Assembly (NCBI GenBank): GCA_964016885.1
Contig: CAXHJY010000720.1
Span: 23,367-87,366 of the forward strand
Origin: Eledone cirrhosa
Taxonomy: Eukaryota
Direction of reading: 5' to 3'
Length of the DNA stretch: 64,000 nucleotides
Each line of letters opens with the position of its first letter. The stretch's first letter is position 1. The notes beneath the pieces are model-generated. The model was given only the letters and a program-made list of their open reading frames with translations. It searched no databases and was not told where the DNA came from. Of this stretch, positions 491-57,292 are shown one piece after another. The position numbers and the translations under genes are program-made.

Positions 491-765
491 TTAAACCAAC
501 CACTTCATTTCGCTTCTCTCGGATCGATTGTTTATTTGCGGCTCTAGGCGTTTGATAAAGAGTGCTTCCTTGATACGTAACGTGCCGACGTTTCTTTCAG
601 TCGCTAGAATTATGACAATGAGCCTTCCGTCTTTGTTTCCGCATTTGTCTATGTGTTTCCGGAAAGACGAGGCCCTGGTTTTAGTGTGGTAGAGACGAGT
701 ACACATGTTGTTGAGGTGTATAACTTTGTCAATACTTTGATATGCCCAGTTCCTGGTTGGGTTGT
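491..765 (-). mobile_element. Penelope-like retroelement, C-terminal GIY-YIG endonuclease fragment (5'-truncated)
   Basis: Minus-strand ORF ends ...SSFRKHIDKC...ILATERNVGTLRIKEALFIKRLEPQINNRSERSEMKWLV*, matching the H/C..IL..E.....EALFI....P.IN pattern of Penelope/Poseidon GIY-YIG C-termini. The ORF 5' part (766-823) is only the inverted arm. Bases 1-490 are the probable 3' UTR/pseudo-LTR. Confidence 0.8.
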
Positions 766-847
766 TCCCAACCAGGAACTGGGCATATGAGAGTATTGAC
801 AAAGTTATACACCTCAACAACATGTGTACTCGTCTCTACCACACTAA
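681..847. repeat. Fold-back inverted repeat, 81-bp arms, 5-nt loop, at the truncation point of the Penelope fragment
   Basis: 681-761 is the reverse complement of 767-847 with 2 mismatches; loop TTGTT. Confidence 0.95.
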
Positions 848-852
848 TTCGG

Positions 853-907
853 ACTGCCTGAAGAGATCACAGCCAAAGATGGCTGTCACCGAAATATATA
901 TAGCAGT
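853..907 (+). ncRNA. Minimal type I hammerhead ribozyme
   Basis: Stem I ACTGC/GCAGT; core CTGAAGA (858-864); stem II G-C plus ACAGCC/GGCTGT; GAAA (891-894); palindromic stem III TATATA; UA cleavage site (901-902); AATAAA immediately downstream. Confidence 0.85.
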
Positions 908-1045
908 AATAAACGAAGCCAAATTTTAAACATTTGACTTATTTATTTTATTTTATATATATATATATATATATATATATATATATATATATATATATAT
1001 ATAATATGCGTGAATATATGAATGTATATTATGTGTTTGCATATA

Positions 1046-1121
1046 CAGGGTGTCCCCAAAACTGTATACACACTTCAACAACCTAATAAATCAGTGTGTT
1101 ACATCTTTTGGGGACACCCTG
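1046..1121. mobile_element. Tc1/mariner-type MITE
   Basis: TIRs CAGGGTGTCCCCAAAA / TTTTGGGGACACCCTG flanked by TA on both sides. Confidence 0.85.
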
Positions 1122-1415
1122 TACATATATGTAATGTGTGTATATGTATGTATATATGTGTGTGAGTGTGTCTGAGTGTATGTATTATATCATACAACAA
1201 AACAAGTATGTAGTAGAAATGTTGTTTAATCACCCTTTAACTTTTTTAACATTATCTGAAAGACAGAACAAAATATATTCTTAGCTTTCTCATAAAAAGA
1301 CAAATAGTTTCTTATAAACTAGAGAAGCATTTATCAAGATAAAACATCTGAATTCAGATATAAAAGGTACAATCTTCCAGACAATTTTTTATTTTAAGAA
1401 CGAATTACTGAAGCA

Positions 1416-1596
1416 TGATATGGTTTGGTTCGTAGTTGAATAGTTTACAGTATAAAAGTAAATGTTAGAACGAAGGCTCGCTTCTTTTCTTACAAATTAT
1501 AATAGGCAGTATGCTATGTTTGGTTCGCAGTCGAGCAGTTTATAGTATAAAAGTGAATGTAGGAACCAAGGTTCGCCTCTTTATCTCCAATATAAT
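1416..1596. repeat. Diverged direct duplication (~90 bp x2)
   Basis: ATG(A/C)TATG..TTTGGTTCG..GT.GA..AGTTTA.AGTATAAAAGT.AATGT occurs at 1416 and 1511. Confidence 0.8.
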
Positions 1597-54585: not shown

Positions 54586-54779
54586 AACGAAGGAAATGTG
54601 GTAAGGAACCAGGTGGACCATAACGCACCAAAGTACTCAATACTTAGGGTAGTAGAGTTGCTAATAGGAACGAGTAGGACCCCGACGGCTGAGCTCAAGC
54701 CGTCTCGACGGCTAATTCAGTCCAGAATTAACTGTCGAAACGGCTTGAGCTCAGCCGTCGGGGTCCTACTCGTTCCTAT
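54586..54779. mobile_element. Family F element with a 55-bp fold-back
   Basis: Arms 54664-54718 and 54725-54779, loop AGTCCA; right arm carries CTGTC-GAAA-CGGCT..AGCCG-TC-GGGGT. Confidence 0.85.
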
Positions 54780-55514
54780 ATATATATATATATATATATG
54801 TGTGTGGGATAACAAGTTATCGTTATAGGTAATCTCAAGCGATTAGCGAACTCTAGACACACCTGATCAACGAAACAATTGTCAGTACTTTAAATAAAGC
54901 CCTTATTGTATAGCCAACCATGTTACGCTTCTTTCTTTAACTTTATATATATATATATATATATATATATATATACACCCACACACATGTTCATGTAAGT
55001 GTGTGTGTGTGTGTAGATTGACTATTAAGATATATTGATACACAGAGGATTTGCACATATACAATATATGTTTGTATTGATTTCAAAATAACAATACTTT
55101 TTTTTTCTCCTAAATTATCTTTTTTTTTAAATCAAACACTACAGACATTGTCTTTTGAAGATAAATATTCCAATACACAGCAAAAAATGTTTCTACAATA
55201 TGTCGAAAAAAACTGAAATTAGAAAAAAACTGAAATTAAAAGAAAAATTCTTATTAGTATAATGACTATTCTCGTTTGTGTGAACTTTGCTTGCTGTTGT
55301 TTTTATGGCTTTGGCTGTGTTTAATGTTTCTGTGTGTTCGAAAAGAGATGTAGCTTGCTTTCTGTTAATATGTAAAAGGGTCCTTTAACTAAATGTGTCC
55401 TTTACCTACACGGGTTCTTACCTGCACGGGCTCTTAATTAGACGGGTCATCATCTACACGGATTCTTACCTATATGTGCCCTTGGCTACATGGCCCTTAA
55501 CTAGACAGACCCAT

Positions 55515-56125
55515 ACAATAAAATACACCCAGTACACTCTGTAAAGTGTACCCAGTGGTAGTGCTGGAGCCATTGTAAAATATACACCCAGTACACTCTG
55601 TAAAGTGGTAGTGTTGGTGCCATGATAAAATACACCTAGTACACTCTGTAAAGTGGTAGTGTTGGTGCCACAATAAAAGACACCCAGTACACTCGGTAAA
55701 ATGGTAGTGTTGGTGCCATGATAAAATAATACACCTAGTACACTCTGTAAAGTGGTAGTGTTGGTGCCACAATAAAAGACACCCAGTACACTCGGTAAAA
55801 TGGTAGTGTTGGTGCCATTATAAAATAATTGTTTCTACTTTAGGCACAAGGCCAGCAATTATCCCAGTGCATTACTGGTACTTTATTTTATCGACCCCGT
55901 AAGGATGAAAGGCAAAGTCAACCTCGGCGGGATTTGAACTCAGATCGTAAAGGGACGTAACTATGCTGGAAAGCATGGCGTCCGACCCTCTACCGATACT
56001 GCCAATCCACCGCCATTATAAAATAATACACCTAGTACACTGTGTAAAGTGGTAGTGTTGGTGCCATGATAAAATACACCCAGAACACTCTGTAAAGTGG
56101 TAGAGCAGGAACCACAATAAAATAC
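55515..56125. repeat. ~50-bp minisatellite interrupted by a SINE
   Basis: ACACC(C/T)AGTACACTCTGTAAAGTGGTAGTGTTGGTGCCA repeated on both sides of the SINE. Confidence 0.9.
55828..56015 (-). mobile_element. Young full-length dominant SINE with TSD
   Basis: TSD CATTATAAAATAAT. Confidence 0.92.
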
Positions 56126-56576
56126 ATGATATCTATTATATATTCACGCGCAGTCTATCTTTCGAGACATTTGCAACACGGACATACAATATTTCATTGC
56201 AGGATGGTGTTGGAAAACTTCCAGTGTGGTCTGACATCACCTTGGTTTTCTTAAGCAAATGTAAAATAAAACACATTTTAGTGATCTAGAAATTCTAAGC
56301 AAACCGAAGATTTATCGAACGACTACTATCGATATACTAAGTGTCTGATCGGAATTATCGCTAACTTGATATGTCAATTGAATCTCTGGAACTATTTCAA
56401 ATAATAAATCTCCAGTTATATTATTTCAGTAACAGATATTTAATGCACCTATTATCTTAATTATCGGTTATATATATATATATATATAGATATATTTATT
56501 TATATATATATATATTAGAAAGTGAGGTTTTTTTTACAAAATGAAAAATAACCGAGGTGTCCTACACGAGTGAAAG

Positions 56577-56878
56577 TATAAAGAAAAAGAGATGAAATCG
56601 AAAATGCAACTGGAGTCTTATTTTTTTTTTTTTAAATATGTATATTTATTTGGTTCCTTTACCAGTTTCGCAGTTCTTCTGCTTTTCAAAAGGTGAGTTG
56701 AGATGGAGGGTCTGTAGTTTTTCTCACATGTGAGAAAAACCACAGACCCTCCATCTCAACTCACCTTTTGAAAAGCAGAAGAACTGCGAAACCGGTAAAG
56801 GAACCAAATAAATATATATATTTAAAAAAAAAATAAGACTCCAGTTGCATTTTCGATTTCATCTCTTTTTCTTTATAT
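56577..56878. repeat. Spacer-less palindrome, ~150-bp arms
   Basis: Centre CTCACA|TGTGAG at 56728/56729; only a few mismatches. Confidence 0.96.
56764..56801 (+). ncRNA. Hammerhead-like motif with variant core (UUGAAAA in place of CUGANGA)
   Basis: CCTT-TTGAAAA-GCAG AAGAA CTGC-GAAA-CCGG-TA-AAGG, then AATAAA; mirror copy at 56656-56693. Confidence 0.6.
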
Positions 56879-57119
56879 ATATATATATATATATATATAT
56901 AATCTATATATGTGTGTGTGTGTATAATAAGAACAAAGTGCGTATGTATGTATCTATCTCTTTCTATCTCACGCTTCCACACTCTCTCTCTCTCTTTCTC
57001 TCTCTCTCTCTCTCTCTCTATGATTCATGCATACATATTTAGATACACGCACTCGCATATATATATATATATATATATATATATATATATATATATATAT
57101 ATATTTACATATACACACA

Positions 57120-57292
57120 AAAAGAGTCAGGACCCCGACGGCTGAGCTCCGGCCGTTTCGACGGCTAGATCCGAATGAAACGGCCGGAAATAAGCCGTCG
57201 GGGCCCTGACTCTTTTCATATTATCCACTCTACTAACCTAGGTATTGAGTACTCTGGAGCGTTATGGTCCACCTGGTTTCTTACCACACTCT
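57120..57292. mobile_element. Family F element with a 40-bp fold-back
   Basis: Arms 57120-57159 and 57177-57216, followed by the sense tail. Confidence 0.82.

What the first reader, a model, noticed from the sequence alone, without database searches (positions are those of the whole stretch)
681..57292. Fold-back DNA repeatedly switches strand at or just upstream of hammerhead motifs
Seen: inverted structures at 681-847, 2572-2920, 17771-17822, 34316-34412, 41610-41745, 42258-42373, 54664-54779, 56577-56878 and 57120-57216. In most of them the strand switch lies in stem II or shortly 5' of the ribozyme core, and the tails point outward, usually into TA tracts. Known: Penelope insertions often have an inverted, truncated pseudo-LTR. 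Inference: reverse transcription stalls at or near the ribozyme helix, and the cDNA snaps back or template-switches. This would make these elements a systematic source of palindromes and potential dsRNA.
Basis: partly seen in the sequence, partly recalled or inferred. Interest (0 to 1): 0.75.

Follow-up and report, generated by a model that had tools for sequence, protein, structure and literature searches.

The report
Cap-to-cap joined Penelope twin copies
These fold-back sequences are back-to-back end pieces of five Penelope-type jumping genes, and an extra G at their shared turning point suggests that the enzyme likely copies the capped front of the element's RNA from both sides of a DNA cut and joins the two copies head to head, rather than stalling at the ribozyme.

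Summary
All nine inversions are real: seven palindromes and two inversions with non-overlapping arms. They belong to five hammerhead-bearing Penelope-like (PLE) families, and junctions differ from copy to copy, so these are independent insertions. One family alone has 11,996 exact palindromes.

Each family has one sharp turning point, shared with plain 5'-truncated copies in four families. It lies in loop II (A), about 5-7 nt before the core (C, E), about 40 nt before it (D) or about 120 nt before it (B). Only 6 of 107 furthest ends fall in stem II, so a helix stall is not supported.

The hot-spot base is an initiator-like A, often preceded by a non-native G (A: 6,300 G vs 1,041 A; C: 53 of 100 vs 14 of 100 at a control site), the footprint of a copied RNA cap. 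Junctions with that base on both arms (289 vs 8 control) point to two cDNAs joined end to end.

Inverted PLE ends are known; five paper searches found no cap-based account. The scan noted cap-G stubs in other genomes and two-ended priming in this one. No RNA data; dsRNA untested.

The parts
681..766 (-). Family B inverted arm (family positions -141 to -56), without ribozyme
767..956 (+). Family B arm (-136 to +54) with minimal type I hammerhead at 853-907 (core 858-864, GAAA 891-894, predicted cut after 902), ending in TA
2572..2750 (-). Family E short arm (-122 to +65), outer end in TA
2751..3052 (+). Family E tail arm; starts at the hammerhead core (2751-2757), long stem II, GAAA 2843-2846; the stem I 5' strand is lost at the junction
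17771..17822 (.). Family A tail-only palindrome (+68 to +98), 3' of the ribozyme: an exception to the rule
34316..34412 (.). Family A inversion without duplicated arms: minus arm 34318-34372 (-38 to +15), plus arm from 34370 (+54 to tail end)
41605..41758 (.). Family A (divergent subfamily) inversion: minus arm 41605-41655 (aligns -29 to +20), plus arm 41671-41758 (+14 to tail end)
42252..42390 (.). Family C palindrome; furthest inner end at -42 (core start), 5 nt inside the family hot spot (-47)
54588..54718 (-). Family A tail arm (about -36 to tail end), outer end in TA
54719..54779 (+). Family A short arm starting at the hot-spot A (-41, inferred RNA start, inside loop II) and ending at the fixed +20 site, then TA; holds only the 3' half of the ribozyme
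56511..56726 (-). Family D tail arm with hammerhead (U3-A8 core variant) at 56656-56693
56727..56878 (+). Family D short arm starting at the family hot spot (-70 to -73), hammerhead 56764-56801, ending at +80 in TA
57120..57298 (.). Family A (divergent subfamily): minus short arm 57120-57176, plus arm 57177-57298 from GAAA (-23) to tail end

Best explanation
The fold-backs are head-to-head end pieces (pseudo-LTRs) of five Penelope-like retrotransposon families, likely made when the element's enzyme primes two cDNAs from the two sides of a cut in a TA tract, both run off the capped 5' end of the element's RNA, and the two cDNA ends are then joined. Shown: family membership, independent junctions, two fixed outer ends (with and without tail), one inner hot spot per family, an excess of non-native G before the hot-spot A, and junctions with that base on both arms. 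Inferred: that the hot spot is the Pol II start site, that the G is the copied cap, that there are two cDNAs from one RNA or one source locus, and that joining uses 0-3 nt of microhomology or short templated filler. The ribozyme is near the junction because promoter and ribozyme share the pseudo-LTR, not because it stops the enzyme.
For: RT and GIY-YIG ORFs lie between or beside the family ends (Pfam RVT_1 1.4e-6 and GIY-YIG 4.7e-7 for D; GIY-YIG only weak, 0.015 and 0.034, for B and E). 78 of 100 position-ordered family-A tail copies have an adjacent inverted arm, 67 ending at +20. Events within 8 nt of the hot spot: A 68 of 92, B 10 of 19, C 8 of 21, D 16 of 21, E 10 of 22 (8 of 20 after removing two SINE insertions), against about 5% for uniform. 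Plain truncated copies share the hot spot in B, C, D, E (D: 9 of 13). The hot-spot A matches YYANWY in 4 of 5 families against 6-10 such sites per 270 nt; D has TATAAAA about 30 nt upstream. G before that A: A 6,300 vs A-base 1,041; copies that continue upstream had 0 G of 37 (A) and 0 of 34 (C); C 53 of 100 non-native rows vs 14 of 100 at a control A six bases away (hand counts); D 52 of 100 (hand count). Extra base on both arms: A 289 vs 8 for the matched control, C 113. These occur in at least five A subfamily variants, with different flanks, and with the central base in both polarities (A 7 and 6, C 10 and 8 by script). Arms share subfamily and rare variants: 1.6 non-CpG mismatches per pair vs 3.7 +/- 0.2 permuted, 44 pairs. 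A purified PLE protein cuts and extends both strands, starts at two sites that bound the tail, and uses uncleaved RNA (PMC11167929). An extra G marks cap copying in L1 (PMC11702581).
Against: No RNA data: the start site and cap are inferred from DNA only. None of the nine window junctions itself shows the extra G; the signal is family-wide. The G excess is weak in B (27 of 100) and E (12 of 100) where TA flanks and SINE insertions dominate (hand counts). Some single G's can be the partner arm's own base (about half of 21). In family A only 3 of 14 plain truncated copies lie at the hot spot. Many family-A arms run 4-5 nt further, to about -45, so there may be two starts. Single-cap junctions are equally well explained by snap-back of one cDNA. 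Arm concordance could partly come from gene conversion. Two window sites (681, 17771) do not switch at the hot spot. The +/-8 window was chosen after seeing the data. Samples for A-E come from contig C1 only.
Confidence: 0.72

Rival explanations
1. One cDNA runs off the capped end, folds back on itself and is copied into the second arm (snap-back), which then joins the other target end.
For: Arms are concordant. Common junctions read as the extra C pairing 4-5 nt back and being extended (seen). Self-priming was proposed from palindromic junctions in rotifer PLEs (PMC3846280).
Against: Junctions with the extra base on both arms and 0-1 nt between them cannot be a hairpin of one strand. The short arm ends at one fixed base in 67 of 78 inversions. 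About 20 of 78 have little or no overlap between arms.
Confidence: 0.17
2. One reading: reverse transcription stalls at the hammerhead helix and then snaps back or switches template.
For: 7 of 9 window switches lie in or just 5' of the ribozyme. A few junctions use native hairpins, such as L129 in family E stem II. Either end falls in stem II in 19 of 107 inversions.
Against: The furthest end lies in stem II in only 6 of 107. Hot spots in B and D are about 120 and 40 nt past the core; D has no strong helix there. A stall does not predict an extra G at one initiator-like base. If the A leader starts in loop II, stem II cannot form on it; the 5' half of that ribozyme has 1,949 exact hits vs 40,769 for the tail.
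Confidence: 0.05
3. The cDNA ends at the ribozyme's cleavage site (processed RNA as template).
For: 8 of 92 family-A events end within 6 nt of the cut; L094 begins exactly there.
Against: About 5 of 100 arms that cover +1 start there (hand count); 0-2 events in B-E. At most a minor route.
Confidence: 0.03
4. Palindromes are long-read or assembly chimeras, or one palindromic master element copied many times.
For: Short-read contigs could not bridge any junction, so there is no read-level confirmation.
Against: Arms differ by 2.6 of 54 bases on average; junctions differ from copy to copy; identical double-G junctions sit in different subfamilies and both polarities; the 54664 element recurs on a second contig with the same flanks and junction (L001).
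Confidence: 0.03

Closest known systems
EN+ Penelope-like insertions with an inverted 5'-truncated pLTR and a one-sided tail (Craig et al. 2021, PMC8557442, passages read; Arkhipova et al. 2013, PMC3846280, passages read)
   Same: Head-to-head inverted pLTR, palindrome at the junction, tail on one side, (TA)n targets, hammerhead in the pLTR.
   Different: Those passages give no fixed junction point or cap base; the 2013 paper proposes self-priming on an antisense template, whereas the extra G here points to a capped sense RNA. Tails here are about 65-135 nt, not 30-40.
Anolis Poseidon PAc in vitro (Frangieh et al. 2024, PMC11167929, parts 1-2 of 4 read)
   Same: Two internal RT start sites that bound the tail, both strands cut and extended, predicted dimer, uncleaved RNA as template.
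   Different: It does not address inverted copies or how cDNA ends are joined; different clade.
L1 twin priming and cap-derived extra G (PMC11702581, passages read)
   Same: Both target ends prime cDNA; inversion junction with microhomology; extra G at full-length 5' ends.
   Different: In L1 the two cDNAs cover adjacent, nearly non-overlapping parts and the second start is variable; here both often run to the same 5' end from fixed starts, which gives palindromes.
PLE minimal hammerheads (Cervera and De la Pena 2014, PMC4209133, passages read)
   Same: Type I motifs, palindromic or absent helix III, U3-A8 core variant, pairs on opposite strands 100-700 bp apart.
   Different: Family A has a 35-nt loop II that holds the inferred start site; family E has a stem II of about 110 nt.
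Animal non-LTR retrozymes (bioRxiv 10.64898/2026.07.22.740005, part 1 of 5 read)
   Same: Non-coding PLE-related repeats with type I hammerheads.
   Different: Retrozymes are tandem units with whole ribozymes; these are solo or inverted leader stubs, in family A mostly half ribozymes.

Membership tests
EN+ Penelope-like element | RT ORF with C-terminal GIY-YIG endonuclease linked to the repeat | tested here: met
   ORFs next to A (L273, L275, L276), C (L263-L266, L278), E (L267-L269), D (L262 only), EN part for B (L279, L280). Pfam significant only for D; weak GIY-YIG for B, E; none for A, C, which rest on motifs read by eye.
EN+ Penelope-like element | pLTR in direct or inverted copies, optional one-sided tail | tested here: met
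   minus-then-plus pairs.
EN+ Penelope-like element | Hammerhead motif in the pLTR | tested here: met
   Core, GAAA, NUH and stem I found in long copies of all five families; MFE folds recover stems I and II for A, B, D, not the full fold for C and E.
EN+ Penelope-like element | RT phylogeny within PLEs | not tested
   No tree built.
EN+ Penelope-like element | Target-site duplication | tested here: inconclusive
   Flanks are TA tracts, where a TSD cannot be read.
Hydra clade (families A, B, C, E) | DKT for DKG, RWK motif, CxCX5C linker, no CCHH, (TA)n targets (PMC8557442) | tested here: met
   by eye: DKT in A and C (EKT in E), RWR in A, C, E, CxCX5C in all four, one Cys between GIY and YIG. 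B seen only in its EN part.
Neptune clade (family D) | CX2-5CxxC linker and two Cys inside GIY-YIG | tested here: met
   L262 translation; one locus only; Nematis not excluded.
Active hammerhead ribozyme | Self-cleavage | not testable with these tools
   Family A cores: 13 U3-A8, 1 C3-G8, 5 C3-A8 mismatch, N7 free; C mostly has U4A.
Pol II start site | Capped RNA 5' ends at the hot-spot base | not testable with these tools
   Inferred from the extra G and initiator-like sequence only.
L1-type twin priming | Two cDNAs primed from opposite target ends, joined at their 3' ends | tested here: inconclusive
   Double-G junctions and fixed second start support it; no intermediate seen.
Non-LTR retrozyme | Tandem units each with a whole hammerhead | tested here: not met
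   The nine window sites and most sampled copies are solo or inverted, with RT/EN parents; a few tandem arrays exist (C23).
MITE / fold-back DNA transposon | Fixed terminal inverted repeats around a fixed core | tested here: not met
   Outer ends are unequal (tail, no tail) and the centre differs per copy.

The most novel reading that the evidence does not exclude
The head-to-head inverted ends typical of Penelope-like elements come from an ordinary step of their cycle: a dimeric enzyme primes both ends of a cut at two fixed sites near the front of one capped RNA, both cDNAs run to the cap, and their ends are fused cap to cap. Short palindromes are the products when neither cDNA is carried on to the element's body. 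The extra G maps PLE promoters from DNA alone, and family A places its start site inside the ribozyme's loop II, so that its RNA leader cannot self-cleave while the 3' copy can.
Probability: 0.55. Interest if true: 0.72.

Novelty: new variant of a known kind. Interest (0 to 1): 0.6.

Why it matters
How PLEs form their inverted ends is an open question: PMC8557442 names it as a task for future in vitro work, and PMC3846280 leaves sense versus antisense templates undecided. Junctions with a cap-type base on both arms argue for a capped sense RNA and two cDNAs, and give exact predictions for the existing in vitro system. The process has also seeded this genome with over ten thousand short palindromes from one family; whether they yield dsRNA is untested.

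Tried and rejected
Rfam scan: only microsatellite-driven miRNA rows in the 150 shown. The repeat finder was swamped by TA arrays. DNA searches for C and D returned nothing because the words are too common; patterns were used instead. RNA runs: no RNA holder listed. Contigs of four runs laid on 54560-57330 bridged no junction. A second hot spot at the ribozyme cut was considered and dropped. A GAAA/GAGA difference between arms in L001-L030 first suggested two templates or editing; it was 2 of 44 in the position-ordered sample, the first set was query-selected, and the change perfects a native quasi-palindrome. Two apparent family-E truncations proved to be SINE insertions. The first parser gave false inversions from TA runs and was replaced; some false inversions remain in B, C and E and were filtered by outer-end position, and paired arms of one event were merged in B-E. 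My hammerhead descriptor misses motifs with a bulged first base. The 491-835 ORF matched neither Pfam nor a neighbouring PLE EN.
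Full report
Setting. The window lies on contig C747 of a 3.0-Gb, AT-rich animal genome; 37% of it is simple repeat. Family positions below count from the predicted ribozyme cut (+1 is the first base after it).

Observation. Seven of the nine sites are palindromes of 82-97% arm identity, and two (34316, 41610) are strand switches with non-overlapping arms. Twenty Markov controls gave none. 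Seven of nine switch in or shortly 5' of a hammerhead; 681 switches about 95 nt before it and 17771 about 68 nt after the cut.

Families. The sites belong to five families: A (five sites), B, C, D, E. Exact motif counts in the genome are 40,769, 1,059, 29,718, 11,846 and 1,850. Long copies carry type I hammerheads and adjoin RT and GIY-YIG reading frames. By motifs A, B, C and E fit the Hydra clade and D the Neptune clade as defined in PMC8557442 (passages); Pfam confirms only D and no tree was built. Each family has two fixed 3' ends, with and without a tail, as for the two RT start sites of PAc (PMC11167929, parts 1-2 of 4).

Independent events. I took the first 100 tail-motif hits of family A on C1 and the first 30 hits for each of B-E. 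In A, 78 of 100 have an adjacent inverted arm, 8 run more than 420 nt upstream and 14 are plain truncations. Junction sequences differ from copy to copy, and 11,996 family-A palindromes match both arms exactly. Arms of one insertion share subfamily and rare variants (1.6 vs 3.7 +/- 0.2 non-CpG mismatches, 44 pairs) yet differ by 2.6 of 54 bases overall: one template or source, then ageing. In 200 kb of arbitrarily placed stretches there were 23 inverted repeats, 17 of them 80 nt or longer; 3 were family A, 3 more had a hammerhead hit in the arm and 1 more by eye. So hammerhead-bearing ends make up about 7 of 17, and the rest were not classified.

Where the switch lies. Events within 8 nt of a family hot spot: A 68 of 92, B 10 of 19, C 8 of 21, D 16 of 21, E 10 of 22, against about 5% expected (window chosen after the fact; E is 8 of 20 once two SINE insertions are removed). 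The hot spot is at -41 in A (loop II), -47 in C and -131 in E (5-7 nt before the core), -72 in D (about 40 nt before) and -167 in B (about 120 nt before). Plain truncated copies share it in B-E, but only 3 of 14 do in A. The furthest inner end lies in stem II in 6 of 107 inversions. The ribozyme cut is at most a minor end point. A helix stall does not fit this pattern.

What marks the hot spot. Its base is an A matching YYANWY in four of five families (6-10 such sites per 270 nt), and D has TATAAAA about 30 nt upstream (the initiator and TATA consensus are recalled). Copies that end there often carry a G where the family has T or C: 6,300 G vs 1,041 A in family A; 53 of 100 non-native rows in C vs 14 of 100 at a control A; 52 of 100 in D; 27 in B and 12 in E (all hand counts). 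Copies that run on upstream had no G in A (0 of 37) or C (0 of 34). Where both A arms reach -41, so that the partner cannot supply the base, 14 of 100 arms had the cap-type base and 3 the control base (hand count). An extra G is the known trace of cap copying in L1 (PMC11702581, passages). A start site inside the pLTR is known for Penelope (PMC2377424; PMC8557442; passages). None of the nine window junctions shows the G itself.

Two cDNAs. Junctions with the extra base on both arms number 289 in A against 8 for the matched control and 113 in C, most with a single A or T between. Forty fetched examples have different flanks, span several A subfamily variants and show both polarities, so they are not copies of one master. 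One strand cannot fold on 0-1 nt, so two cap-ended cDNAs are the simplest source. Many single-G junctions could still be snap-backs.

Model. Shown: anatomy, fixed outer ends, hot spots, extra G, double-G junctions. Inferred: the RNP cuts both strands of a TA tract; each 3' end primes at one of two fixed sites in the RNA's 5' pLTR; both cDNAs run to the cap and gain a C; the ends are joined directly or after trimming through short microhomology, which gives palindromes or, if one cDNA is short, non-overlapping inversions. In family A the start lies in loop II, so the leader would hold only half a ribozyme; the 5' half has 1,949 exact hits vs 40,769 for the tail (motif lengths differ).

Against what is known. 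Inverted pLTRs, junction palindromes and one-sided tails are described (PMC8557442; PMC3846280), as are opposite-strand hammerhead pairs and the U3-A8 core (PMC4209133) and siRNAs from inverted Penelope copies in Drosophila (PMC3681739); all were read as passages. Five paper searches showed no cap-based or two-cDNA account for PLEs; the library lacks most subscription papers and I opened no supplements. Earlier scan notes report two-ended priming in this genome and cap-G stubs in other genomes. I had noted the extra G before seeing the latter; they are unchecked and not counted as support.

Verdict. Interest 0.6.

Noticed in passing
L239, L249; 100 rows: A tRNA-like SINE of about 190 nt sits in family E right at its inferred start site with a short ATT-rich duplication; about 43 of 100 non-native rows show this SINE end. 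Either a site-specific hot spot or an inherited composite.
   Followed up: partly
window 11049-11302; also 46622-47530: Head-to-head inversions of the same SINE family, with no hammerhead hit: inversion is not limited to ribozyme-bearing RNAs. About 25 SINE copies or pieces lie in the window.
   Followed up: no
window 34553-34680: 128-nt palindrome (89%) that matches none of the five families.
   Followed up: no
family A long copies (L009, L024, L082, L087); family D: Hammerhead core covaries at positions 3 and 8 (U3-A8 in 13 copies, C3-G8 in 1, C3-A8 mismatch in 5) with N7 free, a sign of selection; family C mostly has U4A.
   Followed up: partly
L001-L030; window 54700-54712: Recurrent GAAA to GAGA change in one arm that perfects a native quasi-palindrome, possibly templated mutation.
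   Followed up: partly
window 491-680 (-): The family B inverted arm is fused to a fragment that reads like the C-terminal part of a GIY-YIG endonuclease by eye; no Pfam hit.
   Followed up: partly
window 1711-1750, 27019-27084 (+), 60816-60855 (-), 27212-27253 (-), 28288-28346 (-): Further hammerhead-like motifs of other families.
   Followed up: no
window 62448-63847 (-): Broken non-LTR reverse transcriptase frames (by eye; one frame scanned, no Pfam hit at 0.01).
   Followed up: no
window 24252-26199, 35994-37087; 37762-38961: Tandem arrays of a 65-nt unit (two places) and of a 44-nt unit.
   Followed up: no
G000:C23:22049200-22050922: Tandem array of about eight family A palindromes, unit about 215 nt.
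   Followed up: no
L264-L266, L275, L276: Full PLE reading frames with internal inversions and partial duplications, like L1 5' inversions.
   Followed up: no
L210 (G000:C1:9976660): A TA tract lies exactly at the centre of a family D palindrome.
   Followed up: no
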